Assembly (NCBI GenBank): GCA_023382975.1
Contig: JAHDXO010000005.1
Location: 44,876-108,875, forward strand
DNA: 64,000 nucleotides
DNA from: Pirellulaceae bacterium
GTDB lineage: Bacteria > Planctomycetota > Planctomycetia > Pirellulales > Pirellulaceae
Direction: 5' to 3'
This document shows, in pieces, positions 11,644 through 63,870 of the stretch (its first letter is position 1; the number at the start of each line of letters is the position of its first letter). The notes beneath the pieces were generated by a model. That model was not told the origin of the DNA, ran no database searches, and was given only the letters and a program-made list of their open reading frames with translations. The position numbers and the translations under genes were made by a program.

Positions 11644-11730
11644 GTAGCCGAATTCGTGAGAATTCGGATGAAATTGGACGATTCTGAATTCTCACGAATT
11701 CAGCTACGGGTCACGAATTCAACTGCGCGA
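11644..11730. repeat. Cluster of GAATTC-N4-GAATTC palindromic repeat units (REP-like). Two copies are in inverted orientation and there is a partial third.
   Basis: gtagccGAATTCgtgaGAATTCgg ... tctGAATTCtcacGAATTCagctac ... tcacGAATTCaa. The same core recurs at ~12782, ~21547, ~53858, and ~63832. Confidence 0.8.
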
Positions 11731-11748
11731 GCGGGTATCATAACGGGG

Positions 11749-12750
11749 ATGGGCATCGTGCTGCAATCACCTCCGTGGATGCTAAAAGCGTACCCGCTTG
11801 CCGTCACCAGCGCCGTGGCGATGGGCTCGGCCGGCGGGTTTAGCGGCGCAGCGTTTTGGCGAGTGGAAACGTCCGCCGGACCGTTCTGTCTGCGGCGTTG
11901 GCCGCCTGAGCATCCTTCGCCCGACCGACTGCGATCGATCCACTCCGTACTGCGACACGTTTTCGACGTCGGCGTGACTCAAGTGCCTGTGCCGATTCGG
12001 ACGCGGGACGGCGGTACGTTTGTAAGTGACGAGGGGCGCCTTTGGGAACTCGCGCCCTGGATGCCGGGCACCGCAGATTACCACAGCCGACCCACGCGGG
12101 AACGATTGGCGGCGGCCATGCGACTGTTGGCCCTCTTCCACACGGCGACCGCCACTTTTCCGGACCGTCCAAGAGAACAACGAGCGTCGCCAGGATTGCG
12201 TCAGCGCCTCGCACAGATCGATCGACTGATGGCCGGCGAAGTCGGACAGATCGCCGCAGCGGTCCAACGCGACACCGAAGTTGGACGCAGTTCGCGAGGC
12301 GTCCAACTGCTCCGCGCGTTTTCGGAACTGGCACCGCGAATCCGTCCCGATCTGGCGGCGGCCGTGGACCGACCGGTCACCCTGCAGCCTTGCCTGCGGG
12401 ACGTCTGGCACGACCACGTGCTGTTCTCGGGCGACGAGGCGACGGGCCTGATCGATTTCGGCGCGCTCCGAAACGAATGCGTCGTCGGCGACGTGGCTCG
12501 TCTGCTCGGCAGTCTGGTTCGCGATGATCAAGCTGCCTGGCAATTCGGACTCTCGGCCTATCAGCAGCTACGCCCACTATCGACCACCGAACTTGCGCTG
12601 TTAGGAATCTTCCACCGGGCAACCATCGTCCTCTCCGGCATGAACTGGCTGCATTGGATTTACATCGAGCGGCGCGCGTTCGAGAATCTGGAACAGGTTC
12701 TCGCTCGACTTGATGGCATCCTGGAGGATATGGAATGTTTGCGCAGTTGA
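11749..12750 (+). CDS. Aminoglycoside-phosphotransferase / CotS-family protein-kinase-like phosphotransferase.
   Basis: FCLRRWPPEHPS and the downstream sequence ...DVWHDHVLF.GDEATGLIDFGAL are the APH-fold catalytic and Mg-binding regions. An ATG at 11749 lies just after the repeat cluster. The ORF track starts at 11362 and reads through the repeats, which I treat as an artefact. Confidence 0.6.
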   Translation: MGIVLQSPPWMLKAYPLAVTSAVAMGSAGGFSGAAFWRVETSAGPFCLRRWPPEHPSPDRLRSIHSVLRHVFDVGVTQVPVPIRTRDGGTFVSDEGRLWELAPWMPGTADYHSRPTRERLAAAMRLLALFHTATATFPDRPREQRASPGLRQRLAQIDRLMAGEVGQIAAAVQRDTEVGRSSRGVQLLRAFSELAPRIRPDLAAAVDRPVTLQPCLRDVWHDHVLFSGDEATGLIDFGALRNECVVGDVARLLGSLVRDDQAAWQFGLSAYQQLRPLSTTELALLGIFHRATIVLSGMNWLHWIYIERRAFENLEQVLARLDGILEDMECLRS

Positions 12751-12781
12751 GATCAAATGGGGTGTCGCTTTGATCGCAGCA

Positions 12782-12836
12782 GAATTCGAGTCTGCTCAAG
12801 CGTTCTTCAACTCATCCGCTTCTCACGAATTCGAGC
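12782..12836. repeat. Degenerate copy of the GAATTC repeat family.
   Basis: gcAGAATTCgagtctgc ... cttCTCACGAATTCgagc. It sits in the intergenic region after the phosphotransferase. Confidence 0.5.
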
Positions 12837-12963
12837 ACGTGGATTCCTGAGAAAACACGGTATCGACCGGCGGTTTCGGCAGGTCATCACTCGACTTCAT
12901 CGATATACTTCCGGTAAGTTGGTGCTCTCCGAGAATGACGCATTTGTTTGATCTTCTGAAGGT

Positions 12964-15558
12964 TTGCTTGAAATGAAACCAAGAACTCGATTTTGTTGCC
13001 TAGTCGGTTTGCTTGTGGCTTTGATGTGCTGTTTCGGTTGGGCACCGGCCCAAGAATCGCAGTTTCCATTCGAGTCGCAACCGGGCCAGTTCGGACTGGA
13101 GGCGGGGGATCTTGGATCGCTGGACGCCTCGAGCGATGCCAGCCAGAATTTGAAACTGTCCGGCGCGCTGAAGTTGCGCGAGGGAAGTCGCGAGGGCATT
13201 TTGCAGGTCACAGCGACCATGCCCGATGGCTGGCATATCTACGCTTTGACTCAAAAAGGCGGCCCCGGCCCATCGTCCCTCACGGTCAAATCGGTGGACA
13301 AGATTGAATTGCTCGGAGCGTTCCGACCGGACGAGGCTCCGGAAAGTCGCGAGGTGGCCGAGTTCGATGTGCCGCTGGACGAGCATTACGGCACGGTTAC
13401 GTGGACAGCGCCAATTCGGCTGGCCGAAGGCGTCGATCCGCAGACCGTCGAGTTGGAAGTTTCGTTCGATGGAATTCTGTGCCACGATACGAAGGGCTGC
13501 GTTCCCGCCATGGACACGCCCGTCGTCGTGAGTTTCGAAGGCACGATGGACGCTGCGGAGGCCGAAACCGCGATCCCGGCTGCGGGCGAGTTCCGGGCGG
13601 ATCGTTCGCACGTGACGATCCGTGGCCATGTCGAGCCGGCGGCGGTTCAGCCAGGGGGCGCGGTGCGTTTGGTGCTGACGGCTGTCAACGACGAGGGGTG
13701 GCACGTCTATGCGTACGCAGCGAAGGATCCGGTTGAGGTCGCGAAGCCTACGTTGATCGTCGTGACGGAGCCTGCCGACTGGAAGATGGGCCAGGTTCAG
13801 GCTTCCGGCGAACCGACCATCAAGCACGAGGAAAGCTTGCCGCCAGTCGCCTACCACGGGGGAACCGTCTCGTGGTCGGTGGATCTGCAGGTTCCCGAGA
13901 ACGCGCCCGAGGGCATGGTCCGGTTGGCAGGGATGATCGGCTACCAGACCTGTACCGACGTGAATTGCGACCGTCCTTTGGCTGCGGAATTCCATGTCGA
14001 CATTCCCGTGGCTTCCGCCATGAGGGACGGGCAGTTGCCGTTGGAGTTCGCCGCGTCGAGTTACGGCACGGTCGCCCGTGCGGCGGAGGCGAGACAAGCG
14101 TCGGCGCCCGAGTCGGCCGTCGCGTCGAAACCCGCCGCCCCGCCGCCGTCCGGGATCCGACAGATCGACTTCTGGGCGGTGACTTTCGAAAAGCTGGGGT
14201 TTCAGGAAGCGGACGGCCGATGGACCCATTCACGGATGCCGTCCGTGGCTTTGAACGCCTATGCACTGACCGCACTAGCCGTGGCGATGGCCCTGGCGGT
14301 CAGCTTCCTGGGTGGATTGATCCTGAACATCATGCCGTGCGTGTTGCCAGTGATCGGCCTGAAGCTGATGGCCTTCGTCCAGCAGTCGGGCGAAAGCCGC
14401 TGGCGGATTTTCACGCTGAACGTCTGGTACTCGCTGGGCATGTGGCTGGTGTTTCTGATCTTCGCTTGCGTGGCCGCGGTATTGCACCTGCTGGGCGAGA
14501 CGTTCGCGTGGGGCGAGCATCTGGGCGACCCCGCCTTCTCGATCCCGTTGTTGCTGCTTGTGTTCACTCTGGGGCTGAGCATGTTCGGCGTTTGGGAGAT
14601 CCCGATCCCCGGTTTCGTCGGCAGCGGCAAGGCGAACGAACTGGCGATGAAGGAGGGGCCGGCGGGCGCATTTTTCAAGGGCGTGCTGACGACCATTCTG
14701 GCGACCCCGTGCAGCGGCCCCTTCGTCGGTGTGGCCGTCGGCATTGCCGTGATCGCGCCGATCTGGCTGAATTTTGCCATGTTCACCGCGATGGCGCTGG
14801 GGATGGCCAGTCCATACCTGATCATCGGCGCCTTTCCGCAGTTCATCAAGTGGCTGCCGAAACCCGGTGCCTGGATGAACACGATGAAGGAGTTCATGGG
14901 ATTCATCCTGATGGGCACCGGCGTCTGGATCATCTACTTTCTCGAGAACCGTTTCATCGTGCCGATCCTGTCGCTGCTGGTCGGCGTCGCAGCGGCTTGC
15001 TGGGTAATTGGCGGCACGTCGATCACCGCCACCGCGGCCAAGCGAGTTCGCAACTGGGGGTGGGGCCTGGTGTTCAGCTTGGTAGGTTTTTGGCTGTTCC
15101 TGGCGCTGCTGCCGCCGCCGAGCGAATCGGTCGCGGTCCAACGCAACGTCAGCGACAGTTCGCCCGAGTTGCCTTGGGAATCCTTCACGCCCGGCCTGTT
15201 GCAGCAGTACCGCGAGGAAGGGCGCACCGTGCTGGTGGACTTCACCGCCGATTGGTGCTTGACCTGTAAGACGAACGAAGCGGTCGCGCTGAACACGCTC
15301 GATACCAAGCGATTGGTGCTGGAAAACGGCGTCGCGACGCTCAAGGCGGACAAGACGCATCGCCGCGCGTCGGAGGACGTCAATCAACTGTTGGTCGAGT
15401 TGGGCAATTTCGGCAAGACCGTTCCCTTCCTGGCGATCTATCCGGCCAGCGGCGAGCAACCGATCCTGCTCGACGGACTGGTGACCAGGGAACAGGTGCT
15501 CACCGCCCTAAACCAAGCCGGTCCTTCGCGCCGATCGGCCCTTGACCCGGATGCGTGA
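12964..15558 (+). CDS. DsbD-family thiol:disulfide interchange protein (CcdA-like transmembrane core plus C-terminal thioredoxin), with a large N-terminal periplasmic extension of about 430 aa.
   Basis: Signal peptide MKPRTRFCCLVGLLVALMCCFGWA. The transmembrane core contains the conserved Cys (LNIMPCVLPVIGL ... TILATPCSGPFVGVAVG). The C-terminal thioredoxin has CxxC (DFTADWCLTCKTNE). Confidence 0.8.
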   Translation: MLEMKPRTRFCCLVGLLVALMCCFGWAPAQESQFPFESQPGQFGLEAGDLGSLDASSDASQNLKLSGALKLREGSREGILQVTATMPDGWHIYALTQKGGPGPSSLTVKSVDKIELLGAFRPDEAPESREVAEFDVPLDEHYGTVTWTAPIRLAEGVDPQTVELEVSFDGILCHDTKGCVPAMDTPVVVSFEGTMDAAEAETAIPAAGEFRADRSHVTIRGHVEPAAVQPGGAVRLVLTAVNDEGWHVYAYAAKDPVEVAKPTLIVVTEPADWKMGQVQASGEPTIKHEESLPPVAYHGGTVSWSVDLQVPENAPEGMVRLAGMIGYQTCTDVNCDRPLAAEFHVDIPVASAMRDGQLPLEFAASSYGTVARAAEARQASAPESAVASKPAAPPPSGIRQIDFWAVTFEKLGFQEADGRWTHSRMPSVALNAYALTALAVAMALAVSFLGGLILNIMPCVLPVIGLKLMAFVQQSGESRWRIFTLNVWYSLGMWLVFLIFACVAAVLHLLGETFAWGEHLGDPAFSIPLLLLVFTLGLSMFGVWEIPIPGFVGSGKANELAMKEGPAGAFFKGVLTTILATPCSGPFVGVAVGIAVIAPIWLNFAMFTAMALGMASPYLIIGAFPQFIKWLPKPGAWMNTMKEFMGFILMGTGVWIIYFLENRFIVPILSLLVGVAAACWVIGGTSITATAAKRVRNWGWGLVFSLVGFWLFLALLPPPSESVAVQRNVSDSSPELPWESFTPGLLQQYREEGRTVLVDFTADWCLTCKTNEAVALNTLDTKRLVLENGVATLKADKTHRRASEDVNQLLVELGNFGKTVPFLAIYPASGEQPILLDGLVTREQVLTALNQAGPSRRSALDPDA

Positions 15559-15578
15559 TTCGCGAACAGGAGGCAGTG

Positions 15579-16388
15579 ATGGGCAAGAACCCGTTTCCCG
15601 GCATGAATCCGTGGCTGGAATCGCATTGGGGTGATGTGCATACGCGGCTGACCACCTACGCGTGCGATCAATTGCAGCCTCTTCTGCCATCGGGCCTCCG
15701 AGCCCGGATCGAAGAGTACGTATCGGTCGATTCCGACGAGGAAAACGCGCAGTCTGCGCCTCGCTTCGCCCCGGACGTGCGCGTCATCGAGCACCCGGGC
15801 GGGACGGAGGCGTCCGGAGGGATCGGCACCCTGGTCGCGGCCGAACCTCTGCTGGTAAGGCGGATCGCGGAACCCGAGACCCTGCGGTACATCCAGATCG
15901 TGGATCTCACGGCCGGACATCGCATCGTGACGTCGATCGAGTTCTTGAGCCCGGCCAACAAGGCCCACGGGCCCGGATGTCGGCAATACCGGAAGAATCA
16001 ACGCCAGATGCTTGATGGTCGAGTGAACGTGGTGGAAATCGATCTGCTGCGGGCCGGCGGATGGGTGCTGGCCGTGAGCAAAGACTCGGTCCCGAAACCA
16101 TGCCGGCGACCGTATCGGATCTGTGTCGTCCGCGCGGCCAACCCCTGGACTGCCGAAGTCTACCGCACCGCTCTGGATCAACCTCTTCCGATCATTCGCG
16201 TACCGCTCCGTTGCGACGACGCCGACGTCCCCTTGAACCTCCAAACGCTGATCGACGCCGCCTACTTCAACGGACGATACGCCGACGACATCGACTACTC
16301 GAAGCCACCTCGTCCCAAGCTGCGAGACGCCGATGCCCAATGGGCAGCACGTGTGCTGACGGACCAAGGTCTGTACCACGAAGCATGA
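15579..16388 (+). CDS. DUF4058-family protein with a PD-(D/E)XK-like motif.
   Basis: The N-terminus MGKNPFPGMNPWLESHW is the hallmark DUF4058 start (MPSPFPGMDPYLE...). An IVD...EFLSPANK motif resembles the Uma2/PD-(D/E)XK active site. Confidence 0.55.
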   Translation: MGKNPFPGMNPWLESHWGDVHTRLTTYACDQLQPLLPSGLRARIEEYVSVDSDEENAQSAPRFAPDVRVIEHPGGTEASGGIGTLVAAEPLLVRRIAEPETLRYIQIVDLTAGHRIVTSIEFLSPANKAHGPGCRQYRKNQRQMLDGRVNVVEIDLLRAGGWVLAVSKDSVPKPCRRPYRICVVRAANPWTAEVYRTALDQPLPIIRVPLRCDDADVPLNLQTLIDAAYFNGRYADDIDYSKPPRPKLRDADAQWAARVLTDQGLYHEA

Positions 16389-16403
16389 TCGCCCCGCAAA
16401 ACG

Positions 16404-18203
16404 TCACAGCAGTTCGTCGAGTTGGGCGACCAACGTGTCGAACTGCTTCAGGGCGGTCTCGACCGGCTCTGGACTGCTCATGTCGACCCCCGCGTCGCGA
16501 AGCAGGTCGAGCGGATCCTTCGAGCAGCCTCCCTTGAGGAAGCCCAAGTAGTCGTTCAATTCCGCGGCACCGCCGTGAAGGACTCGTTGGCTGAGTGCGA
16601 TCGCGGCGGAGAGACCGGTGGCGTACTTGTAGACGTAGAATCCACGATAGAAATGCGGGATGCGGAAGCATTCCAGGGACAGTTCGTCGTCCAAGGCGAA
16701 ATCGGGGCCGAAATACTGTTCCAGCAGATTGCGGTACGTGTCCTTGAACGTTTGCACCGTCAGCGGCTGGCCGGCTTCGGCCATCTCGTGCGTGATCTTT
16801 TCGAATTCCGCGAACATCGTCTGACGCACGATCGTGGCCCGGATGCTGTCCACCTCGCGGTTGATCAGGTAGGCCCGCTGACGATCGTCCTTGGCTCGCT
16901 GCAACAAGTATTGGAACAGCAGTTGCTCGTTGAACGTGCTGGCGACTTCGGCGACGAAGATCGTGTAGTTGTAGTACTGAAACGGCTGATGGCGGGCCGA
17001 GTGGTACGAGTGCATCGAATGGCCCGCTTCGTGGGCCAGGGTGAACATGTCTTCGAGCACTTCAGGCTTGTAGTTCATCAAGATGTACGGATCGCCGTCG
17101 AAGGTGCCGCAACTGAAGGCGCCGCTCTGTTTGCCTCGGTTCGGGTAGCGGTCGCACCAGCGGCCTTTCAGTCCCTTTTCGAGCGCGGCGCAGTAATCGC
17201 TGCCCAGCGGAGCGAGCGCCTTGACCACGTTCGACACCGCCTCGTTCCACGTGTGCCGCACCGAGACTTCGCTGAGGATCGGCACGTAGGTGTCGAAGTG
17301 GTGAATGTCCTTCAATCCCATCTTGCGGCGGCGCAGATCGAAATAGCGGTGGACGGCGGGCAATTGGCGGTGGACGGCGGTGATCAAATTCTCGTAGACG
17401 CTGGCCGGTACGTTGTCCGGAAACAGCGCAGCGGCCAGCGAACTTTCGTAACCGCGAGCCTTGGCGTAGTAAACGTCGGTCAGGATCGATCCGCTGAGCG
17501 TCGCGGCCAGCGTGTTTTCGTGCGATTGGAACTGCTGGTAGTATTGCCGGAACGCCGTCCGCCGCACGCTGCGCTTGGGAGACTGCAGCAGTTGCATGAA
17601 GGTCGAGTTGCCTAACTCGATCCGTTCGCCCCGCTCGTTGGTCACCAGACCGAACTTCAAATCGGCGTCGTGCAGTTGCCGGAACGCCTTGCTGGCCGAT
17701 TGCGCCATCTCGCCCTGCATGGCCAGCAGTTCTTCCTCTTTCTTGCCGAGCGTGTGCTTCTTGAACCGCACGATCCGCTCTAGGACCAGTCGGTATGGTG
17801 CCAATTCGACGGCATCGAGCCACGCCTGCAGCTTGCCGGCGGCGATGGCTAGAATCTCCGGACGGATATAGCTGGCCGCTTGCCCGGCCCGGGTGGCGAC
17901 GTTCTGGAAGCGGGCGAGCAATCCTTGGTAGTGGCTGTTCGTCTGGTCCTCGGCGGTCTTCAGGAATGCGTACGTACCGAGGCGTTCGCCCAAACGGTCC
18001 AGTTCGCAATCGAACGCCAAGCATTCCGCCACTACGGCGGGGCCTTCGCTCAAACGGCCTCGAAAACGTTCGTAGCCCGCGATCTGCTCGCCGTATCGCT
18101 GAAAATGTTCCTCCCACGCTTTGTCATCGGGGAAGAGGCTGCCGAGATCCCAAGTATCCGCCTGCTTGACCTGGTGCCGCTGGGGCAACTGCTTTACTTT
18201 CAT
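16404..18203 (-). CDS. pepF: Oligoendopeptidase F (M3-family metallopeptidase).
   Basis: The zinc-binding motif HEAGHSMHSY (HExxH) is present and similarity to M3B runs along the full length. Start is MKVKQLP at 18203, with 'cat' confirmed on the + strand. The ORF track extends to 18395 through an alternative start. Confidence 0.8.
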   Translation of the reverse strand: MKVKQLPQRHQVKQADTWDLGSLFPDDKAWEEHFQRYGEQIAGYERFRGRLSEGPAVVAECLAFDCELDRLGERLGTYAFLKTAEDQTNSHYQGLLARFQNVATRAGQAASYIRPEILAIAAGKLQAWLDAVELAPYRLVLERIVRFKKHTLGKKEEELLAMQGEMAQSASKAFRQLHDADLKFGLVTNERGERIELGNSTFMQLLQSPKRSVRRTAFRQYYQQFQSHENTLAATLSGSILTDVYYAKARGYESSLAAALFPDNVPASVYENLITAVHRQLPAVHRYFDLRRRKMGLKDIHHFDTYVPILSEVSVRHTWNEAVSNVVKALAPLGSDYCAALEKGLKGRWCDRYPNRGKQSGAFSCGTFDGDPYILMNYKPEVLEDMFTLAHEAGHSMHSYHSARHQPFQYYNYTIFVAEVASTFNEQLLFQYLLQRAKDDRQRAYLINREVDSIRATIVRQTMFAEFEKITHEMAEAGQPLTVQTFKDTYRNLLEQYFGPDFALDDELSLECFRIPHFYRGFYVYKYATGLSAAIALSQRVLHGGAAELNDYLGFLKGGCSKDPLDLLRDAGVDMSSPEPVETALKQFDTLVAQLDELL

Positions 18204-18404
18204 CAAGAAACGCCGCTTTCGAACCAAATTGATCGGGAAATCAGCCGCGCCAAGGCAAGCCCGGCATGTCCTACAGACGCCGAATTGTAGGCCAATCATG
18301 GCCCGGCGACTATCGGGGCGAGCGCGGCGCGCTGGTGATCTTGGGGCCAAATCGAACGGGATTGCGAACGTCGGGAGTCTCCGCCGACATGCCACATCGA
18401 AGCA

Positions 18405-20423: not shown

Positions 20424-20426
20424 AAT

Positions 20427-21449
20427 TCAAAATTGATGCAGGAATCGGACGTCGTTCTTGTAAAATTCGCGGATATCGGTGATCCGGTGCCGCCGCATGC
20501 ACAGCCGCTCGACGCCCAAGCCGAATGCGAAGCCGATGACCTGCTCCGGATCGTAACCGACCGCCCGCAACACGTTCGGGTCCACCATGCCCGCTCCGCC
20601 GAATTCGATCCACTGGTCGTTCCAGTGGTAATCGACCTCGACACTCGGCTCGGTGAACGGGAAAAACGAAGGCCGGAACCGGATATGCACGTCGCCGCCC
20701 AGATAGCTGGTCGCGAACAGCCTCAGGACGCTTTTCAAGTCGGCCATGGTGACATGGCGATCAATCAGCAAGCCTTCCATCTGGTGGAACATCGGGTAGT
20801 GCGTGGCGTCCGCCGTATCGGGCCGATAGACGCGGCCCAGCGAGATGATCCGCACCGGCGGCGGAGTACTTTCCATCACCCGGATCTGCACGGTGCTGGT
20901 TTGGCTCCGCAAGAGCAGCGGCGAATCCCCGGCGAGTTTCTCTGCCGCGCTCAGGTAGAAATTGTCCAACGGGTCGCGAGCCGGGTGTTCGCGCGGGATG
21001 TTCAACGCCTCGAAGTTATGCCACTCGTCCTCGATCTCCGGGCCTTCGGCAGCCGAAAATCCCAGCCGGCCCATGATGTCCTTCAATTCTTCGATCGTCT
21101 GCGTGATCGGATGCAGTCGGCCGCTACGCACCGGCGTGCCGGGCAGTGTCGGGTCGAAGTGCGGTCCCCGCTGGACCCGAGGCCCGCCGCTGGCCAGTCG
21201 CTCGGTCGCAGCCTGAAACGCTGCTTCGACTCGCTGCTTGACCTCGTTGAACCGCATCCCCGCCGCGCGACGGTCGGTCGAATCGATACCGCCCATCTGC
21301 TTCTGGACCGCCTTCACACGGCCCTGCTTGGCACCCAGATATTCGACGCGCGCCGCCTCGACCGACTCGGCATCGTCTGCCGAACCAAAGGCTTGCTCGG
21401 CTGCCGAAGCCAAGTCATCCAACTGCTGAAGGAATTCCGCCAATGCCAT
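20427..21449 (-). CDS. pheS: Phenylalanine--tRNA ligase alpha subunit.
   Basis: Class II aaRS motifs are present ([16 protein letters not shown]; [10 protein letters not shown]). It is adjacent to pheT. Confidence 0.9.
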
Positions 21450-21546
21450 CTTACTGAGATCTCGAAGCGGCTGAAACGAAACGAGAGACAGGCCCTGTTC
21501 GTTCCAGGCCCGTCTCTCGGATGAATGCGAGCAACACTCTCTGCGA

Positions 21547-21568
21547 TCGCCGAATTCGCGAGAATTCG
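21547..21568. repeat. Copy of the GAATTC-N4-GAATTC palindromic repeat, located between rplT and pheS.
   Basis: cgccGAATTCgcgaGAATTCggatg. Confidence 0.7.
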
Positions 21569-21586
21569 GATGTCTCCGGCCGACGG

Positions 21587-21943
21587 TCAGGCTGCCAGCG
21601 CCGTCTTGACCCGGTTCACCACCTCGCCAAACGCCGCGGGATCAGCGACTGCCAACTCGGCCAACGAACGACGGTCCAGTTCGATACCGGCCTGCTTCAG
21701 GCCGCCGATGAACTCGCTGTACCTCAGACCGTGCTGGCTAACCGCCGCGTTGATGCGGATGATCCACAACTTGCGGAAATCGCGTTTGCGAGCCCGCCGG
21801 TCTCGAAACGCATACGCGCCGGCACGAACCAGCGTCTCTTTCACCGTGCGCAGCAACGTGCCGCGCCCGCCACGGTAACCCTTGGCCCGCTTGAACAGAC
21901 GTCTCTTCGCCTGGTTGCGGGCAGCGCCTTTTGTCGTTCTCAT
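21587..21943 (-). CDS. rplT: 50S ribosomal protein L20.
   Basis: [28 protein letters not shown]...AVADPAAF is the canonical L20 sequence. Confidence 0.9.
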
Positions 21944-22018
21944 GGTTCTCTACGACTCCCTTACGCCATCAGGCCCCCTTCATCCACAGAAGGGTGTTAT
22001 GCGCCCATCGCGTTCAAA

Positions 22019-22222
22019 TTAGTAGCTATTTCCTGCCAGTGCCGCGCGAATTGATTTTTCCATCGGCTTATCCACCACTTTGGTGCCGCGCAGATTTCGC
22101 TTCCGCTTGGCGGATACGCGAGTCTGCAAGTGGCTCGTTCCCGCTTGGCGATGCTTGGCATGGCCCTTGGCGGTCAATCGAAAGCGTTTCTTGGTCCCTT
22201 TGTGCGTCTTCTGCTTCGGCAT
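22019..22222 (-). CDS. rpmI: 50S ribosomal protein L35.
   Basis: MPKQKTHKGTKKRFRLTAKG is the canonical L35 start. The ORF track begins 4 codons earlier (MATT). Confidence 0.85.
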   Translation of the reverse strand: MPKQKTHKGTKKRFRLTAKGHAKHRQAGTSHLQTRVSAKRKRNLRGTKVVDKPMEKSIRAALAGNSY

Positions 22223-22532
22223 TGTTGTGGCCAACCTTGAATATCGCGAGAAATCCCCAAGTCAAAACGCACAAGTGTACTTTCCTCGCTCCGGCAGGGA
22301 AAGGGGGATCGTCAAGAAACGCTTGCCGAGTGCCTGCGTGGCTGGACAGCAGTGCATTTTCGGCCAGCGCATCCGCCGAGACTCGTCCGAGCTACCGTCC
22401 ATGCATTCAGTGGAAGAAGTGTCTCGGAATCGGGGAACCTTGCCGAACGAACCTCCACGAATATAATCAGAACATCGGAGACGGAGATACACAACACGGG
22501 GGATTCGTTCCAGCAGAGAGGTTGAACATTCG

Positions 22533-33817: not shown

Positions 33818-33947
33818 AGGCGCCCGCCGAAGTCTCGGGAATTCGGATCCGGCATTCCCGTGCGGTGATATTTTTTGGCGGTACGTGGTCAACGGCCAGG
33901 AAATTCTGTATCATCCCGACTGCCGATTACCCACCGAGGAGTAGCCC

Positions 33948-45990: not shown

Positions 45991-46037
45991 CGAGGAAGAA
46001 TGGGCTTCCTCCCAACGGGGCACGGCCGCAACCAACT

Positions 46038-46266: not shown

Positions 46267-46337
46267 AAGATGCGCGCCGCGCGCACCCTACGAACCGTGA
46301 CTCGAGCGGCCGCCTGTTGAACGTGACCGGCGCCGGG

Positions 46338-53857: not shown

Positions 53858-53888
53858 TTCGCGAAGCGAATTCTCGTGAATTCGCCTA
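53858..53888. repeat. Copy of the GAATTC-N4-GAATTC palindromic repeat.
   Basis: gcGAATTCtcgtGAATTCgcctac. Confidence 0.7.
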
Positions 53889-53994
53889 CAGAGTCCTGAT
53901 CGAGGCAAGATCCTCCACCGCCATGCGAAATACGATCGGTTTGTGGATCTGCCTCACGACTCACGCAACATCCAAGAAGAAGGAGATCATTTCG

Positions 53995-57170: not shown

Positions 57171-57228
57171 GCGCGTTGAACGGCAAGCCGAAGGCGTCTG
57201 CGCCCCGCGTTGAACGGCAAGCCGCAGG
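57171..57228. repeat. Two direct copies of the 'CGTTGAACGGCAAGCCG(A/C)AGG' repeat (family 2), spaced 35 nt apart.
   Basis: gcgCGTTGAACGGCAAGCCGAAGGcg ... ccgCGTTGAACGGCAAGCCGCAGGcg. The same motif forms the outer arms of the 46038-46266 element. Confidence 0.7.
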
Positions 57229-57291
57229 CGATCTCATCCCGCGGTGCTTCCCCATGCATACGCTTCGGGTTTGGTCCAGGTTAAGCTATGA

Positions 57292-61080: not shown

Positions 61081-61734
61081 ATGCCAGCGGTCTGGGACTA
61101 TCTGGGGGTATGTTTTTCCGGCGCCAATTTGCCGGCGAGCGTGGTCTTGCTGGTCGCGATCATGTACTGGCTGTTGGCGATCGTCGCGGGTCTGGATCTG
61201 GACTTTCTGGATTTCGATCTGAACATGGATGGCCAAGCCGATCTGGGCGAGGTGACCGGGATGGGCGTGGTCATCTTGCGGTTCCTGAATATCGGGCTCG
61301 TACCGTTGGTGATTTGGGGCAGCATCCTGGCGATCAACTGGTGGATGGTCTCGATGTTGTTGGACCGGTTGCTGGACAACGTTTATCACGCCGAACAGCG
61401 TGAGGTGTGGTTCAACGCGGTCCAGTGGACGATCCGCAACTTGGCCATCGCCGTGGTGCTGACCAAGATTTTCACGCAGCCGCTGCGAGGCAAGTTCGAT
61501 GCGGAAGAGCCGAATACGGCAGCGGACTTGATCGGCCGGACCTGCCGGATCGTCAACAGCGAGGTGACCGAGCGGTTCGGCCAGGCGGAGTACGCGACGG
61601 AGGCGGCTCCTTTGATTCTGAATGTACGGACGCGCGGGACCGCCTTACTGAACAAGGGCGATACCGCCGTGATTGTCGACTTTGATCCCGAACGCAACAT
61701 CTTCTTCGTCGAGAAAGAGAAAACCGAGGTTTAA
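61081..61734 (+). CDS. YqiJ-family (DUF1449, NfeD-like) inner-membrane protein, the partner of flotillin.
   Basis: MPAVWDYLGVCFSGANLPASVVLLVAIMYWLL...DLDFLDFDLNMDGQADLGE has the YqiJ architecture: an N-terminal transmembrane segment, the motif ANLP, and an acidic D/F-rich segment. A GAGGAG RBS precedes the ATG confirmed at 61081. It lies immediately upstream of the flotillin gene. Confidence 0.6.
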   Translation: MPAVWDYLGVCFSGANLPASVVLLVAIMYWLLAIVAGLDLDFLDFDLNMDGQADLGEVTGMGVVILRFLNIGLVPLVIWGSILAINWWMVSMLLDRLLDNVYHAEQREVWFNAVQWTIRNLAIAVVLTKIFTQPLRGKFDAEEPNTAADLIGRTCRIVNSEVTERFGQAEYATEAAPLILNVRTRGTALLNKGDTAVIVDFDPERNIFFVEKEKTEV

Positions 61735-61736
61735 CG

Positions 61737-63818
61737 ATGCCGGAAGTCATCATCACGATCGTCGTCGGTCTGGGCTTGTTCTTCATGGCCCTGATTGCCA
61801 TAGCCTTTCTCTTCAACCAGTTCTATCGCAAGGTGGGGCCGGAAGAGGCGCTGGTCCGATCCGGATTGGGCGGACTGGCTGCCGTGACGGGCAAGGGGAT
61901 ACTGGTCTTTCCGGTGATCCATCGCGTCGACCGCATGGATCTGTCGGTCAAGCGGATCGAGATCCACCGCAAGGGCGGCCAGGGACTGATCTGCCGCGAC
62001 AACATGCGGGCCGACATCGAGGTGGCGTTCTTCGTCCGCGTGAATAACGCCCGCGAGACGATCCTGCAGGTCGCCCAATCGCTGGGTTGCCGCCGGGCCT
62101 CCGAGCGGGCCGCGCTGGTCGAACTGTTCGACGCCAAGTTCTCCGAAGCCTTGAAGACGGTCGGCAAGCGATTCGATTTCGTCGAATTGTACGAAGAGCG
62201 GGACAAGTTCAAGGAGGAGATCATCAAGGTGATCGGCACCGACTTGAACGGTTACGTTCTGGACGACTGCGCCATCGACTATCTGGAACAGACGTCGATG
62301 GAGATGATGGATCCGCAGAACATCCTGGATGCCGAGGGCATCAAGAAGATCGTCGACCTGACCGCGCGGGAACACATCCTGGCGAACGAGATCGCGCGGG
62401 AAAAAGAGAAGACGATCAAGAAGCAGGACGTGCTGGCCCGCGAAGCGATCCTCGAGTTGGAACGGCAGCAAATCGAGGCCGAGCAGAAGCAGAAACGCGA
62501 GGTCGCCGAAGTTACCGCGCGTCAAGAAGCCGAGGCGCGGATGGTCGAAGAACAGGAACGGCTGAAAGCCGAATCGGCTCGCATCCGCACCGACGAAGAA
62601 TTGATGGTCGCCGATCAGAACAAGGAACGGCAAGTCATCGTGGCCACGCGGAACAAGGAACGCACCGACGGGGTCGAGCGTGAACGGGTGGTCCGCGACC
62701 GCGACTTGGAGGCCACCGACCGCGAGCGCGTCGTCTCGCTGGCCCAGATCGAGAAGGACAAGGCGATCGAAGTCGAGAAGCGCAACATCCAGGAAGTCAT
62801 CCGCGAGCGGGTGGCGGTCGAACGGTCCGTGGTCGAGGAGCAGGAGCGGATCAAGGACACCGAGCAATTCGCGGGGGCCGACCGCCAGAAACGCGTGCAG
62901 GTCACCCGGGCGGAAATGGTGGCCCAGGAAGACTTGGTCAAGCAGGTGAAAGCGGCCGAAGCGTCCAAGCAGTCGGCGTCGCTGAAGGCCGAGCAGATCG
63001 TGATCGAGGCCGAGGCGGATCGGCAGGCGTCCGAGAAGCAGATGCAGGCCACGAAGATGTTGGCCGAGGCCAAGACGGCCGACGAAGCGGCGCTGGGACT
63101 GGCCGAAGCCAACGTGATGACTGCCAAGGCCGCCGCCAAGGAAAAGGACGGGACGGCGGACGCCGTGGTGCTGGAGCGGAAAGCCGTCGCCCAAGCCAAG
63201 GGCGTCGAAGCGATGGCGGAAGCCAAGGAAAAGGACGGCACGGCCGAAGCCAAGGTGATGCACCTGAAGTTCAGCAGCGAAGCTCAAGGCATCGAGGAGA
63301 AGGCCGCCGCCATGAAACTGTTCGACAGCGTCGGCAAGGAGCACGAGGAATTCAAGCTGCACTTGAACAAGCAGAAGGACATCGAACTGGCCGCCATCGC
63401 CGCGCAGCGCGAGATCGCCGAGGCCCAGGCCGGTATCGTCGGCGAAGCGCTGAAGAACGCCCGCATCGACATCGTGGGCGGCGAAACGACTTTCTTCGAC
63501 AAGATCGTCGACGCGGTCAAGAGCGGCAAGGCCGTCGATCGATGGGTCCAGAACAGCGAAACGCTGACCGACGTCAAGAACACGTTCTTCAACGGCAACC
63601 CGGACTACTTCCGGGACAAGCTGCAGCAGTTCTTCGGCCAGTTCAACCTGACGGCCAACGACGTCAAGGATCTGTCGGTTGCCGCTCTGATCGCCAAGAT
63701 GATGGGCATGACCGACAGCGACGAGGCCAAGAGCGAACTCGGCCGTTTGCTGGACATGGCCAAACGCGTCGGGTTGGCCGATAGCAAAGCCTCGTCGCTG
63801 ACACTGCAGGCCAAGTGA
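61737..63818 (+). CDS. Flotillin / SPFH (band-7) family protein (YqiK-like).
   Basis: It has an N-terminal transmembrane segment, an SPFH domain (ALVRSGLGG...ILVFPVIHRVDRMDLS), and a long coiled-coil E/A/K-rich C-terminus. An ATG is confirmed at 61737. Confidence 0.8.
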   Translation: MPEVIITIVVGLGLFFMALIAIAFLFNQFYRKVGPEEALVRSGLGGLAAVTGKGILVFPVIHRVDRMDLSVKRIEIHRKGGQGLICRDNMRADIEVAFFVRVNNARETILQVAQSLGCRRASERAALVELFDAKFSEALKTVGKRFDFVELYEERDKFKEEIIKVIGTDLNGYVLDDCAIDYLEQTSMEMMDPQNILDAEGIKKIVDLTAREHILANEIAREKEKTIKKQDVLAREAILELERQQIEAEQKQKREVAEVTARQEAEARMVEEQERLKAESARIRTDEELMVADQNKERQVIVATRNKERTDGVERERVVRDRDLEATDRERVVSLAQIEKDKAIEVEKRNIQEVIRERVAVERSVVEEQERIKDTEQFAGADRQKRVQVTRAEMVAQEDLVKQVKAAEASKQSASLKAEQIVIEAEADRQASEKQMQATKMLAEAKTADEAALGLAEANVMTAKAAAKEKDGTADAVVLERKAVAQAKGVEAMAEAKEKDGTAEAKVMHLKFSSEAQGIEEKAAAMKLFDSVGKEHEEFKLHLNKQKDIELAAIAAQREIAEAQAGIVGEALKNARIDIVGGETTFFDKIVDAVKSGKAVDRWVQNSETLTDVKNTFFNGNPDYFRDKLQQFFGQFNLTANDVKDLSVAALIAKMMGMTDSDEAKSELGRLLDMAKRVGLADSKASSLTLQAK

Positions 63819-63831
63819 GCGTGGGGATTCC

Positions 63832-63870
63832 CGTAGCCGAATTCGGGAGAATTCGGCTACGGGGAAGAGA
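63832..63870. repeat. Best-preserved copy of the GAATTC-N4-GAATTC palindrome. It is a perfect 12-bp inverted repeat with a 4-nt loop.
   Basis: cccGTAGCCGAATTC-ggga-GAATTCGGCTACggg. Confidence 0.8.

What the first reader, a model, noticed from the sequence alone, without database searches (positions are those of the whole stretch)
11644..63870. Dispersed palindromic repeat family GAATTC-N4-GAATTC in intergenic regions
At least seven copies share the core GAATTC-NNNN-GAATTC, usually flanked by complementary GC-rich arms. The copies are at 11644-11667, 11685-11708, a partial one at 11713-11722, a degenerate one at 12782-12836, 21547-21568, 53858-53888, and 63832-63870. The last is GTAGCCGAATTC-ggga-GAATTCGGCTAC, a perfect 12-bp inverted repeat. 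All lie between genes: after 3' ends or in divergent promoter regions, and one sits between rplT and pheS. Two AT-rich EcoRI-like hexamers are conspicuous in a ~68% GC genome. This looks like a REP/BIME-like element family. Such elements can give mRNA 3' stabilisation, protein binding (IHF, gyrase) or transcription attenuation, or be targets of a REP-associated tyrosine transposase. It could alternatively be a binding site for an unknown dimeric regulator.
Basis: seen in the sequence. Interest (0 to 1): 0.65.

Follow-up and report, generated by a model that had tools for sequence, protein, structure and literature searches.

The report
GTAG-tagged REP repeats of a planctomycete
The GAATTC-N4-GAATTC palindromes are a real family of small repeated DNA hairpins (REP/REPIN elements) of planctomycete bacteria. 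A dedicated tyrosine transposase (RAYT), encoded outside this window, most likely copies them around the genome, and this kind of element was already described in Rhodopirellula baltica in 2013.

Summary
Five intact copies of GAATTC-N4-GAATTC lie in 64 kb, against 0.02 expected by chance, and all are intergenic. There are also two or three decayed relics.

Once oriented, the unit is GTAG-C-N-GAATTC-GTGA-GAATTC-N-G: an unpaired 5' GTAG tag, an 8-bp stem and a 4-nt loop. One site (11644-11707) is an inverted doublet with the GTAG tags outermost, which is the REPIN form.

The host is a Pirellulales-like planctomycete with about 62% GC, not 68%. A scan of representative genomes found the same 24-mer almost only in Planctomycetota, plus a few Verrucomicrobiota. 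The one stem pair that the search pattern left free is base-paired in 148 of 154 copies (63.5 expected) and uses all four Watson-Crick combinations.

Genes for a divergent RAYT, homologous to R. baltica RB11751, are flanked by GTAG hairpins of this design in 77 of 89 loci examined. One of them (L202) carries exactly the window's variant. The predicted fold of this protein best matches E. coli TnpA_REP (PDB 4ER8).

The regulator-operator, terminator and EcoRI-site readings are not. No RAYT gene lies in the window. This is a new member of a known kind (the GTAG-tagged REPs of Di Nocera 2013) and of modest interest.

The parts
11644..11667 (+). REP monomer GTAG-CCGAATTC-GTGA-GAATTCGG, the left arm of the doublet
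   Evidence: Exact pattern match. Covariance model 42.7 bits, E 1.2e-9. DNA hairpin -7.9 kcal/mol, z = -3.9.
11684..11707 (-). REP monomer GTAG-CTGAATTC-GTGA-GAATTCAG, the right arm of the doublet
   Evidence: Exact pattern match. Covariance model 43.0 bits, E 1e-9. DNA hairpin -6.7 kcal/mol, z = -4.5.
11644..11707 (.). REPIN-type inverted doublet with the GTAG tags outermost ('HH dimer'). It lies 75 nt after the stop of ORF 11782-12543(-) and just upstream of the sulfatase gene 10137-11639(-).
   Evidence: 25-nt arms, 92% complementary, 14 nt apart (I19). Folds as one long hairpin, -21.3 kcal/mol, z = -6.8. HH is the dominant doublet type in related genomes: 23 HH, 8 HT, 1 TT.
11710..11729 (-). 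Truncated REP relic: GCAG-TT-GAATTC-GTGA, with the 3' half-stem missing
   Evidence: The 11-mer GAATTCGTGAc matches with one mismatch. It does not fold and is not detected by the covariance model.
12776..12838 (.). Decayed inverted doublet in the divergent region between ORF 11782-12543(-) and the dsbD-like gene 12964-15558(+). The outer half-stems are kept and the inner halves are lost.
   Evidence: Exact 11-mer GAATTCGTGAG at 12822-12832(-). Aligns end to end with the intact doublet. The covariance model gives only 10.4 bits, E 1.3. No stable hairpin.
21546..21569 (+). REP body CCGAATTC-GCGA-GAATTCGG with the tag decayed to ATCG. It lies 18 nt after the rplT stop and 100 nt before the pheS start.
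   Evidence: Exact pattern match. Covariance model 27.2 bits, E 2.5e-5, with model positions 4-24 only. It is present in relatives whose pheS is 96% identical (L203, L204), with progressively decayed tags, and absent in L205 (90% identical), where the spacer is 2 bp.
53866..53889 (-). REP monomer GTAG-GCGAATTC-ACGA-GAATTCGC, 15 nt after the stop of the PhyH-family gene 52931-53851(+)
   Evidence: Exact pattern match. Covariance model 34.3 bits, E 2.6e-7. DNA hairpin -8.4 kcal/mol.
63830..63863 (.). REP GTAG-CCGAATTC-GGGA-GAATTCGG followed by CTAC, so it reads as a tagged REP on both strands and has a 15-bp stem. It lies 15 nt after the stop of ORF 61737-63818(+).
   Evidence: Exact pattern match. 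Covariance model 39.4 bits (+) and 29.2 bits (-). DNA hairpin -19.2 kcal/mol, z = -7.5.
33827..33846 (-). Possible degenerate copy CC-GAATTC-CCGA-GACTTC-GG without a GTAG tag, 12 nt after the stop of ORF 32831-33817(+)
   Evidence: One-mismatch hit to the core pattern. Covariance model only 8.0 bits, E 5.6. Sequence inspected. This part is tentative.

Best explanation
These are GTAG-tagged repetitive extragenic palindromes (REPs). One of them is arranged as an inverted doublet (REPIN). They belong to a family found widely across Planctomycetota.

Each unit is a 24-nt single-strand hairpin: an unpaired 5' GTAG, an 8-bp stem (C-N-GAATTC paired with GAATTC-N-G) and a GTGA loop.

The most likely mechanism is mobilisation in trans. 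The elements are non-autonomous, and a HUH/Y1 tyrosine transposase of the RAYT type (the RB11751-like clade) copies or maintains them. By analogy with E. coli TnpA_REP, the enzyme would recognise the folded hairpin plus the GTAG tag on single-stranded DNA. That gene is not in this window and should lie elsewhere in the genome, itself bracketed by the same hairpins.

The copies accumulate where insertion is tolerated, mostly within the first 100 nt or so after stop codons. They then decay, losing first the tag and then one half-stem. Any effect on the host, such as a 3'-end RNA hairpin that protects the upstream mRNA, would be secondary.

Shown here: the family is real and intergenic; pairing is selected; doublet architecture; RAYT genes in related genomes are flanked by this hairpin type, including the exact variant; and the protein has a RAYT-like fold.

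Inferred: this genome has its own RAYT; the RAYT actually cleaves or mobilises these units; and any RNA-level role.
For: (1) Enrichment. There are 5 exact copies against 0.02 expected, and an independent covariance model recovers the same sites at E from 1e-9 to 2.5e-5.

(2) Architecture. In 154-158 oriented copies from 113 genome stretches plus the window (158, 154), positions left free by the search pattern are conserved: C at -2 (93%), loop GTGA (85-97% per position) and G at +17 (84%). The flanks are random, and the GTAG tag has no complementary partner.

(3) Covariation. The unconstrained stem pair (-1/+16) is paired in 148 of 154 copies against 63.5 expected, as G-C 48, C-G 41, T-A 39 and A-T 11.

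(4) Location. Of 122 sites, 53 lie between tandem genes, 24 between convergent genes, 14 between divergent genes and about 8 inside genes. The median distance from a stop codon is 61 nt. Orientation relative to the flanking genes is unbiased: 30 (+,+) against 32 (-,-).

(5) Doublets. There are 23 HH (tags outermost), 8 HT and 1 TT. The window's doublet folds at -21.3 kcal/mol.

(6) RAYT link. L014 encodes a protein 59.5% identical to R. baltica RB11751 and is flanked by such hairpins. Across 89 RAYT loci, 77 have GTAG-plus-8-bp-stem hairpins within 400 bp, and among the 80 metagenome loci 55 have them on both sides. The density is 4.97 per kb in the flanks, 0.225 per kb elsewhere and 0.085 per kb in shuffled sequence. 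Twenty-two loci have GAATTC/GAATTC stems. L202 has GTAG-C[AG]GAATTC-GTGA-GAATTC[TC]G on both sides of the gene.

(7) The protein is a RAYT. It has the HUH motif MPDHxH and the tyrosine motif EYIARNPERAGLV. NCBIfam REP_Tyr_transpos matches at E 1e-10. JGI names homologues 'REP element-mobilizing transposase RayT'. The AlphaFold model has pLDDT 93, and its best PDB match is 4ER8, TnpA_REP bound to a REP hairpin, at E 6.9e-7 and TM 0.58/0.66, followed by the IS608 and ISDra2 TnpA structures.

(8) Literature. Di Nocera et al. 2013 describe GTAG-tagged REPs in R. baltica (families GTAG-20 to GTAG-22) and in Opitutus terrae. They list RB11751 as a RAYT and report GTAG-21 dimers inside the neighbouring ORFs RB11752 and RB11765. 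The REP-encoded peptides they list back-translate to roughly GTA(A/G)-CCGGATTC-GCGA-GAATCCGG.

(9) Turnover. The rplT-pheS copy is absent from a relative whose pheS is 90% identical, and is present with a decaying tag and a partial duplication in relatives at 96%.
Against: - No RAYT gene is in the window (tblastn; motif scan), and the rest of this genome is not available. A cognate enzyme in this organism is therefore assumed.
- The genome-wide copy number in this organism is unknown; I can only extrapolate from 5 copies in 64 kb.
- The RAYT clade scores below the curated cut-offs of Pfam Y1_Tnp (16.5 against 23 bits) and NCBIfam NF047646 (41 against 80 bits). A profile of it finds no PDB sequence.
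- In the published alignment the clade has Y-D where E. coli TnpA_REP has the W-Q residues. Quentin et al. tie that region to GTAG recognition but call the role of W94 unclear.
- No biochemical evidence exists for this clade.
- The absence at the orthologous site (L205) involves the whole 135-nt spacer, not a clean REP-sized gap, so it does not define an insertion event.
- Most RAYT-flanking hairpins have GCCA or GCAA loops. Only a few loci (L202, L182, L183) have the GTGA loop that dominates the dispersed copies.
Confidence: 0.85

Rival explanations
1. The hairpins are primarily host RNA elements: 3'-end stabilisers or factor-dependent terminators placed after genes. On this view function keeps the sequence constant, and the RAYT association is incidental.
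For: Sites cluster just after stop codons, with a median of 61 nt and 36 of 77 within 50 nt. Convergent contexts outnumber divergent ones, 24 to 14. The loop on the GTAG strand is a GNRA-type tetraloop, GTGA in 124 of 154 copies. The same 24-mer persists across several orders of Planctomycetota and in some Verrucomicrobiota. G-T pairs occur in stems, which Di Nocera et al. take as a hint of RNA function.
Against: Orientation relative to the flanking genes is unbiased, 30 against 32, so half the transcripts would carry the complementary UCAC loop and a 3' CUAC. No T-tract follows the stems, and none of the copies in the part scanned (11000-22500, which holds three of the five intact copies) is called terminator-like. 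Rfam has no match. Copies decay, as shown by lost tags and lost half-stems. One is absent at an orthologous site. The densest clusters surround RAYT genes.
Confidence: 0.08
2. The palindrome is an operator for an unknown dimeric DNA-binding regulator, as in the first reader's alternative.
For: It is a near-perfect inverted repeat with two identical hexamers 10 bp apart, one helical turn. The decayed doublet lies in a divergent promoter region at 12776-12838.
Against: The free stem pair covaries: complementarity is kept while the sequence changes. Relatives flanking RAYT genes swap the hexamer for GGATTC, GACTTC, GAAGTC, GAACTC, GATCTT or ACCGTC with compensating changes. The unit is asymmetric, with a GTAG tag on one side and a GTGA loop. 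Most sites lie downstream of genes. The neighbouring genes are unrelated to one another; the largest neighbour family is 10 of 615 proteins.
Confidence: 0.03
3. The paired EcoRI-like GAATTC sites reflect a restriction-modification or other site-specific system acting on GAATTC.
For: GAATTC occurs 37 times against 21 expected in the window.
Against: The excess is explained by the repeats themselves: about 13 of the 37 sites lie in repeats or relics, leaving about 24 against 21 +/- 4 expected. Sister sub-families have non-GAATTC stems. No restriction-modification family appears among the 25 Pfam families listed for the window's proteins; 76 families matched in all and the other 51 were not seen.
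Confidence: 0.01

Closest known systems
GTAG-tagged REP families of Rhodopirellula baltica (GTAG-20 to GTAG-22, especially GTAG-21) and Opitutus terrae; Di Nocera, De Gregorio and Rocco 2013, BMC Genomics 14:522 (PMC3733652)
   Same: Same superphylum (PVC). Both have an unpaired 5' GTAG tag, a 6-9 bp stem, a short loop, extragenic location mostly downstream of genes, a preference for HH dimers, and a RAYT gene (RB11751) flanked by the repeats. The peptides published for intragenic GTAG-21 copies back-translate to roughly GTA(A/G)-CCGGATTC-GCGA-GAATCCGG. That differs from the window's unit by one compensated stem pair and one loop base (my inference). Around the RB11751 orthologue of Rhodopirellula sp. 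P2, 17 copies read GTAG-CCGGATTC-GCCA(A)-GAATTCGG and one has the window's exact stem, CCGAATTC.
   Different: The window's sub-family has the self-complementary hexamer GAATTC in both half-stems and a GTGA loop. It occurs in an uncultured Pirellulales-like organism. The breadth of this exact 24-mer, across Pirellulales, Gemmataceae, Planctomycetaceae, Isosphaeraceae-like MAGs and some Verrucomicrobiota, is not reported in the parts of that paper I read. The paper's Figure 1, which holds the consensus sequences, could not be read, so identity with GTAG-21 is inferred and not verified.
REPIN-RAYT systems of Pseudomonas and Enterobacteria (Nunvar 2010; Bertels and Rainey 2011; Bertels 2017)
   Same: Two REPs in inverted orientation form a long hairpin. 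The RAYT gene is bracketed by its own REPs. Copies are intergenic, and REP sequence types track RAYT lineages.
   Different: The RAYT clade here is much more divergent, about 15% identical to E. coli TnpA_REP in the structural alignment and below Pfam and NCBIfam thresholds. Whether it is single-copy per genome was not tested. Di Nocera et al. report 'a plethora' of tyrosine transposase genes in R. baltica.
E. coli REP/BIME elements with TnpA_REP (structure 4ER8; Messing 2012, Ton-Hoang 2012)
   Same: Both have a GTAG tag 5' of an imperfect palindrome. The best structural match of the associated planctomycete protein is TnpA_REP bound to a REP hairpin.
   Different: E. coli REPs are longer (about 35 nt) with bulged stems and larger loops. 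BIME organisation and IHF, gyrase or Pol I binding are defined experimentally in E. coli, and none of that was tested here. The W-Q residues conserved in typical TnpA_REP subclasses are Y-D in this clade.
Class 3 TnpA_Y1 of Planctomycetes and Acidobacteria (Quentin et al. 2018, PMC6006769)
   Same: [quoted passage not shown]
   Different: Class 3 has the motifs NHVH, W[TA] and YV[VI]xEQ and a CnGA foot on its hairpins. The clade here has PDHxH and YIARNPE, and its hairpins have GTAG feet. It is a different group.

Membership tests
GTAG-tagged REP (Di Nocera 2013; Nunvar 2010) | Short (20-40 bp) imperfect palindrome able to form a stem-loop | tested here: met
   24-nt unit with an 8-bp stem and a 4-nt loop. 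DNA folding energies run from -6.7 to -8.4 kcal/mol for monomers. Three of the four monomer folds have z between -2.7 and -4.5; the rplT-pheS copy gives z = -1.6, with 17 of 200 shuffles folding at least as well. The free stem pair is paired in 148 of 154 copies against 63.5 expected.
GTAG-tagged REP (Di Nocera 2013; Nunvar 2010) | Unpaired GTAG (or GTGG) tetranucleotide at the 5' foot of the hairpin | tested here: met
   Four of the five intact window copies have GTAG. The rplT-pheS copy has ATCG. In related genomes the 3' flank shows no CTAC complement. The search pattern forced GTAG there, but hairpins found independently next to RAYT genes also carry it.
GTAG-tagged REP (Di Nocera 2013; Nunvar 2010) | Extragenic, predominantly downstream of coding regions, between tandem or convergent genes | tested here: met
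   In the window, all copies are intergenic and four sites lie 15-75 nt after a stop codon. In related loci there are 53 tandem, 24 convergent, 14 divergent and about 8 intragenic sites of 122, with a median of 61 nt from a stop codon. Gene calls there come from my own ORF heuristic.
GTAG-tagged REP (Di Nocera 2013; Nunvar 2010) | High copy number in the genome (typically more than 100) | tested here: inconclusive
   Only 64 kb of this genome is available. Five copies in 64 kb would extrapolate to several hundred in a 6-8 Mb genome. No whole-genome count was possible.
REPIN (Bertels and Rainey 2011) / HH dimer (Di Nocera 2013) | Two REPs in inverted orientation, separated by a short spacer, able to fold into one long hairpin | tested here: met
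   At 11644-11707 the arms are 25 nt, 92% complementary and 14 nt apart, folding at -21.3 kcal/mol, z = -6.8. A decayed second doublet lies at 12776-12838. In related genomes there are 23 HH, 8 HT and 1 TT.
REP-RAYT association (REPtron) | A RAYT gene in the same genome, flanked by the same REP type | not testable with these tools
   No RAYT is in the window and the rest of the genome is not held. In other Planctomycetota the feature is met: 77 of 89 RB11751-like genes have GTAG hairpins within 400 bp, and L202 has the exact window variant on both sides.
RAYT / TnpA_REP (for the associated protein family, RB11751-like) | HUH motif, catalytic tyrosine in a C-terminal helix, and an IS200-like Y1 fold closest to TnpA_REP | tested here: met
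   H71 and H73 (the PDHxH motif) and Y132 (the EYIARNPE motif) are invariant in 90 sequences. The AlphaFold model has pLDDT 93.2. The top PDB hit is 4ER8 at E 6.9e-7, followed by IS608, ISDra2 and IS200 TnpA.
RAYT / TnpA_REP (for the associated protein family, RB11751-like) | Passes the curated family thresholds (Pfam PF01797 Y1_Tnp; NCBIfam NF047646 REP_Tyr_transpos) | tested here: not met
   Pfam gives 11-16.5 bits against a cut-off of 23. NCBIfam gives 31-42 bits against a cut-off of 80, although E reaches 1e-10 over nearly the full model. A profile finds no PDB sequence match. The clade is a divergent relative, not a member by the curated sequence models.
REP as a mobile element | Presence/absence polymorphism at orthologous sites | tested here: inconclusive
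   The rplT-pheS copy is present in the window, L203 and L204 and absent in L205, whose spacer is 2 bp. The whole 135-190 nt spacer differs, so this is not a clean empty site.
E. coli-type BIME | Regular alternation of REP types with defined linker motifs, and binding of IHF, gyrase or Pol I | not testable with these tools
   The window holds only one doublet. Protein binding needs experiments. Periodic REP arrays do occur around RAYT genes, with a 285-nt period in L116 and about 147 nt in L119.
Intrinsic (Rho-independent) terminator | GC-rich hairpin followed by a T-tract on the transcribed strand | tested here: not met
   No T-run follows any copy. Over 11000-22500, which covers the copies at 11644, 11684 and 21546, none is reported by the terminator scan; the copies at 53866 and 63833 were not scanned. 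Orientation relative to genes is unbiased.
Rfam RNA families | Match to a curated covariance model | tested here: not met
   The only hits in the window are two tRNAs and a c-di-GMP-I-GGC riboswitch. Nothing matches at the repeats.

The most novel reading that the evidence does not exclude
The same 24-nt REP (GTAG-C-N-GAATTC-GTGA-GAATTC-N-G) is kept almost letter for letter across at least four family- or order-level lineages of Planctomycetota. It also occurs on megabase-sized contigs of a long-read Verrucomicrobiales MAG. It is paired with a RAYT clade that lacks the W-Q residues conserved in other GTAG-associated RAYTs. That combination could mean a REPIN-RAYT partnership of phylum-level age, with an independently evolved way of reading the GTAG tag. 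Alternatively, the host may have co-opted the hairpin, for example as a general 3'-end element in a phylum whose transcription termination signals are poorly known. Either would be older and more sequence-stable than the Pseudomonas and enterobacterial systems on which REPIN theory is built.
Probability: 0.15. Interest if true: 0.55.

Novelty: new member of a known kind. Interest (0 to 1): 0.25.

Why it matters
For genome annotation the result is practical. These hairpins explain the conspicuous paired EcoRI sites. They mark intergenic DNA, and they cause spurious ORF calls, because several ORFs end in the TAG of the GTAG tag or run through REP dimers. They should not be mistaken for operators or terminators.

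For biology the result is modest. It extends a family described in one planctomycete in 2013 to an uncultured Pirellulales-like lineage. With 89 loci, it shows that a large and poorly annotated protein family (hundreds of mostly unnamed or 'hypothetical' entries that fall below Pfam and NCBIfam thresholds) is a RAYT clade whose genes are consistently bracketed by GTAG hairpins. The many stem variants that stay paired, each tracking a particular RAYT gene, form a natural data set for working out how RAYTs read their hairpins.

Tried and rejected
- Rfam scan of the whole window. Nothing matched at the repeats.
- Clustering 615 proteins encoded near copies in 114 sequences. No family recurs; the largest is 10 proteins in 9 loci. 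A fixed partner gene next to dispersed copies is therefore rejected.
- Search for a RAYT in the window, by the motif regex Y[IVLMT]xxNP and by tblastn with four RAYT/TIRYT sequences. None was found.
- Pfam scan of 50 window proteins. No Y1_Tnp or restriction-modification family appears among the 25 families listed, of 76 that matched.
- Terminator and promoter scan of 11000-22500. The REPs there are not terminator-like.
- Profile search of the RAYT alignment against PDB sequences. No hit. The fold search was needed instead.
- Contig L001, found through the window's own pheS, is the same organism at 99.95% identity and adds nothing.
- The loci around close pheS homologues share only the rpmI-rplT-pheS-pheT block with the window. 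The other REP sites could therefore not be compared at orthologous positions.
- The EcoRI/restriction-modification idea is rejected because the GAATTC excess disappears once the repeats are removed.
- One script call was wasted.

Full report
**Observation**

The pattern GAATTC-N4-GAATTC occurs five times in the window, at 11650, 11686, 21552, 53868 and 63839. Dinucleotide-preserving shuffles give a mean of 0.02 and never more than 1. The window is about 62% GC, not 68%.

Reading the copies with their flanks shows that they are not symmetric. In a common orientation they read:
- GTAG-CC-GAATTC-GTGA-GAATTC-GG at 11644, + strand
- GTAG-CT-GAATTC-GTGA-GAATTC-AG at 11707, - strand
- atcg-CC-GAATTC-GCGA-GAATTC-GG at 21546, + strand
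- GTAG-GC-GAATTC-ACGA-GAATTC-GC at 53889, - strand
- GTAG-CC-GAATTC-GGGA-GAATTC-GG-CTAC at 63833

The unit is therefore a 5' GTAG, an 8-bp stem and a 4-nt loop that usually ends in GA.

As single-stranded DNA the monomers fold at -6.7 to -8.4 kcal/mol. The two units at 11644-11707 face each other with the GTAG tags outermost and fold into one long hairpin of -21.3 kcal/mol (z = -6.8). The last copy has a 15-bp stem of -19.2 kcal/mol.

They do carry the diagnostic 11-mer GAATTCGTGAG, exact at 12822-12832 and with one mismatch at 11710-11720. The segment 12776-12838 aligns end to end with the intact doublet. I read both as decayed relics. A further possible degenerate copy lies at 33827-33846.

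GAATTC as a whole (37 sites against 21 expected) is no longer enriched once the repeat copies are removed.

**Context in the window**

I called genes by codon-position GC and annotated them with Pfam.
- The doublet lies 75 nt after the stop of ORF 11782-12543(-) and just upstream of a sulfatase gene.
- The decayed doublet lies between that ORF and a divergent dsbD-like gene.
- The third copy lies 18 nt after rplT and 100 nt before pheS.
- The fourth lies 15 nt after a PhyH-family gene.
- The fifth lies 15 nt after ORF 61737-63818.

None is followed by a T-tract. Over the stretch scanned (11000-22500, covering three of the five intact copies), none is called a terminator. Rfam finds only two tRNAs and a c-di-GMP riboswitch in the window. 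The gene content, with sulfatases and a short pheT, and the later hits place the organism in Planctomycetota, near Pirellulales.

**Distribution**

I scanned one genome per species, 185,579 species in all, for GTAGNNGAATTCNNGAGAATTC. By my own estimate this pattern has 18 specified bases and about 17 chance hits. Almost all are Planctomycetota: Pirellulales, Gemmataceae, Planctomycetaceae, Schlesneria and a Singulisphaera-like MAG. A few are Verrucomicrobiota, including 1-Mb and 2-Mb contigs of one MAG. Three are MAGs labelled Chitinophaga, Deltaproteobacteria and Kuenenia, which may be binning errors.

In 158 oriented copies, the positions the pattern left free are conserved: C at -2 (93%), G-T at the first two loop positions (94% and 85%) and G at +17 (84%). 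Sequence beyond the 24-mer is random, and the GTAG tag has no complementary partner.

The one fully unconstrained stem pair (-1/+16) is base-paired in 148 of 154 copies, against 63.5 expected if the two positions were independent. It uses G-C (48), C-G (41), T-A (39) and A-T (11). What is selected is therefore the ability to form a hairpin, not a sequence read on duplex DNA.

**Position and orientation in related genomes**

With my own ORF heuristic, 122 sites fall as follows: 53 between tandem genes, 24 between convergent genes, 14 between divergent genes, about 8 inside genes and 23 at locus edges. Where a gene's 3' end adjoins the site, the median distance from the stop codon is 61 nt, and 36 of 77 sites are within 50 nt.

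Orientation of the GTAG strand relative to the flanking genes is unbiased, 30 against 32. That argues against a strand-specific RNA motif.

Adjacent copies are mostly inverted with the tags outermost: 23 HH, 8 head-to-tail and 1 with the tags inside. No protein family recurs next to the copies.

**What is known**

Di Nocera, De Gregorio and Rocco (2013, PMC3733652) sorted REPs into GTAG-tagged and CGTC-tagged super-families. They report GTAG families in the PVC superphylum, namely R. baltica (GTAG-20 to GTAG-22) and Opitutus terrae. They find HH dimers to be the preferred arrangement, location mainly downstream of genes, and RAYT genes flanked by the repeats.

Their supplementary table lists REP-encoded peptides for intragenic GTAG-21 copies in R. 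baltica. I back-translate VTGFARIR and SRIRQEF to roughly GTA(A/G)-CCGGATTC-GCGA-GAATCCGG. That is the window's unit with one compensated stem pair and one loop base changed (this is my inference, because the figure with the consensus sequences is not held).

Two of the ORFs they list as containing GTAG-21 dimers, RB11752 and RB11765, neighbour RB11751. RB11751 appears as a RAYT in their alignment.

**Link to a transposase**

One scanned stretch, L014, encodes a 186-aa protein 59.5% identical to RB11751. It is bracketed by GTAG hairpin dimers such as GTAG-TGGACTTC-GCCA-GAAGTCCC and GTAG-TGGAATTC-GCGA-GAATTCCC.

The family is large: 713 and 863 homologues in two searches. Most are unnamed or 'hypothetical', and JGI calls some 'REP element-mobilizing transposase RayT'.

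I fetched DNA around eight homologues from genomes and MAGs: Roseiconus lacunae, Pirellulaceae SH501, Roseimaritima multifibrata, Stieleria varia, Rhodopirellula sp. P2, and Gemmataceae, Pirellulales and Planctomycetaceae MAGs. I also fetched 80 from JGI metagenomes.

Counting L014, 77 of the 89 loci have hairpins of GTAG plus an 8-bp stem plus a 4-5 nt loop within 400 bp of the gene. Among the 80 metagenome loci, 55 have them on both sides. The density is 4.97 per kb in the flanks, 0.225 per kb elsewhere in the same loci and 0.085 per kb in shuffled sequence.

Stems differ between loci but stay paired. Examples are CCGGATTC/GAATTCGG, CTGAACTC/GAGTTCAG, TGGATCTT/AAGATCC(C/T) (7 of 8 positions paired), CTACCGTC/GACGGTGG and CGGAAGTC/GACTTCCG.

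Twenty-two loci have GAATTC in both half-stems. Locus L202 has GTAG-CAGAATTC-GTGA-GAATTCTG and GTAG-CGGAATTC-GTGA-GAATTCCG upstream and downstream of the gene, which is exactly the window's consensus. Around the RB11751 orthologue of Rhodopirellula sp. P2, 17 copies read GTAG-CCGGATTC-GCCA(A)-GAATTCGG and one has the window's stem, CCGAATTC.

**Is the protein a RAYT?**

By curated sequence models it is not: Pfam Y1_Tnp gives 11-16.5 bits against a cut-off of 23, and NCBIfam REP_Tyr_transpos gives 31-42 bits against 80. The NCBIfam match nevertheless has E = 1e-10 over nearly the whole model. A profile of nine members finds no PDB sequence.

The HUH histidines (PDHxH) and the tyrosine of EYIARNPE are invariant in 90 sequences. 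An AlphaFold model built from that alignment is confident (pLDDT 93.2, pTM 0.88). Its best PDB match is 4ER8, E. coli TnpA_REP bound to a REP hairpin (E 6.9e-7, TM 0.58/0.66, 149 columns), followed by the IS608, ISDra2 and IS200 transposases.

I conclude that this is a divergent RAYT clade. In the published alignment it has Y-D where E. coli has the W-Q pair, which lies in the region Quentin et al. 2018 link to GTAG recognition. I did not test this further.

**Turnover**

The contig found through the window's own pheS is the same organism (99.95% identity).

Relatives with 96% identical pheS (L203, L204) keep the rplT-pheS copy, but the tag decays: the CTAC complement reads CTCC, CGCC and CGAT in L203, L204 and the window. 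L203 also has an extra partial duplicate. A relative at 90% identity (L205) has a 2-bp rplT-pheS spacer and no repeat.

This shows gain or loss and decay at one orthologous site. It is not a clean REP-sized insertion.

**Explanation**

The best-supported reading (confidence 0.85) is that these are GTAG-tagged REP/REPIN elements. They are non-autonomous hairpin repeats, maintained or spread by an RB11751-like RAYT encoded elsewhere in the genome, that land mostly just after genes and then decay.

- Shown: the family is real, pairing is selected, the elements are extragenic, doublets have the expected architecture, RAYT genes are bracketed by this hairpin type including the exact variant, and the protein has a RAYT fold.
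- Inferred: a RAYT exists in this genome, it acts on these units, and it recognises the hairpin and tag on single-stranded DNA as TnpA_REP does in E. coli.

A host role as a 3'-end RNA hairpin remains possible as a secondary effect. As the primary explanation it is unlikely, because orientation is unbiased, copies decay, and the densest clusters surround RAYT genes.

An operator for a dimeric regulator is contradicted by the covariation, the asymmetry of the unit and the unrelated neighbouring genes. A GAATTC-specific restriction-modification explanation is contradicted by the sister sub-families with other stems and by the normal GAATTC count outside the repeats.

**Novelty and score**

This kind of element and its presence in a planctomycete were published in 2013, so this is a new member of a known kind.

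Two things are mildly new here. First, one 24-mer is spread across several orders of Planctomycetota and into Verrucomicrobiota. Second, a large, mostly unannotated protein family is shown to be a REP-bracketed RAYT clade.

Interest is 0.25. The most novel reading not excluded is a phylum-age REPIN-RAYT partnership with a different way of reading the GTAG tag, or host co-option of the hairpin. I give that a probability of about 0.15.

Noticed in passing
window 43568-43656 (+): A c-di-GMP-I-GGC riboswitch aptamer (Rfam RF03167, 71.8 bits against a gathering score of 59) lies upstream of small ORF 43841-44077 and gene 44299-45990.
   Followed up: no
window about 21468-21520 (- strand), between the REP and the pheS start: A long GC-rich hairpin, GAGAGACGGGCC...GGCCTGTCTCTC, is followed by GTTTCGTTTC. 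It is conserved in relatives L203 and L204 and absent in L205, where rplT and pheS are 2 bp apart. It may be an rplT terminator or a pheST attenuator and is separate from the REP.
   Followed up: partly
window 45990-46338 (intergenic): This region holds a cluster of other repeats. One is a perfect 23-nt inverted repeat made of two GTGG-tagged hairpins, GTGG-GGTAAGCT-TCC-AGCTTGCC, at 46125-46147 and 46194-46216. Another is a single GTAG-GGTGCGCG-CGG-CGCGCATC hairpin at 46268-46291(-). Copies of a second dispersed family are also present. The GTGG hairpin was not found in any fetched locus.
   Followed up: partly
window 46036-46069, 46239-46266 (reverse complement), 57172-57205, 57206-57239: A second dispersed intergenic repeat, CGTTGAACGG(C/T)AAGCCG(A/C)AGG, has four copies. 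It also occurs as inverted pairs in the close relatives L203 and L204, and once in L027. Its nature is unknown.
   Followed up: partly
window 63900-64000: The last 100 nt are homopolymer-rich and look odd (...CCCAAAAAAAAAACCCCCCCCCGGGCCCGGG...). This looks like a contig end or an assembly or read artefact rather than biology.
   Followed up: no
window 33827-33846 (-): A possible extra degenerate REP, CC-GAATTC-CCGA-GACTTC-GG, has no GTAG tag and lies 12 nt after the stop of ORF 32831-33817. The covariance model gives only 8 bits.
   Followed up: partly
L127, L129, L159 (RAYT loci), and six host ORFs in L002-L114: The TAG inside the GTAG tag often serves as the stop codon of the upstream gene: the distance from RAYT end to REP is 0, and it is -3 for six host ORFs. 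REP insertion can therefore set or reset a gene's C-terminus.
   Followed up: no
L116 8802-11760; L119 9779-12563: Around the RAYT genes of Pirellulaceae SH501 and Rhodopirellula sp. P2, the REP dimers form regular arrays, with 18 units at a 285-nt period and 17 units at about 147 nt. This suggests tandem amplification of dimer-plus-spacer blocks.
   Followed up: no
L203 19533-19582; L204 18238-18287: Close relatives of the window's organism carry another GTAG-tagged HH dimer type, GTAG-GTCGTTCC-TTTC-GGGCCGAC paired with GTAG-GACGTCCC-TTCC-GGGCCGTC. It is not seen in the window.
   Followed up: no
L202 3560-3667: Downstream of the RAYT, the contig ends in a run of GAGTGAGAATTCT repeats derived from the REP 3' half. 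This is probably an assembly artefact at a repeat-induced contig break.
   Followed up: no
RB11751-like proteins (alignments A1, A4): The clade has Y-D where E. coli TnpA_REP has the W-Q residues, which lie in the region Quentin et al. 2018 link to GTAG recognition. Its hairpins are nevertheless GTAG-tagged.
   Followed up: partly
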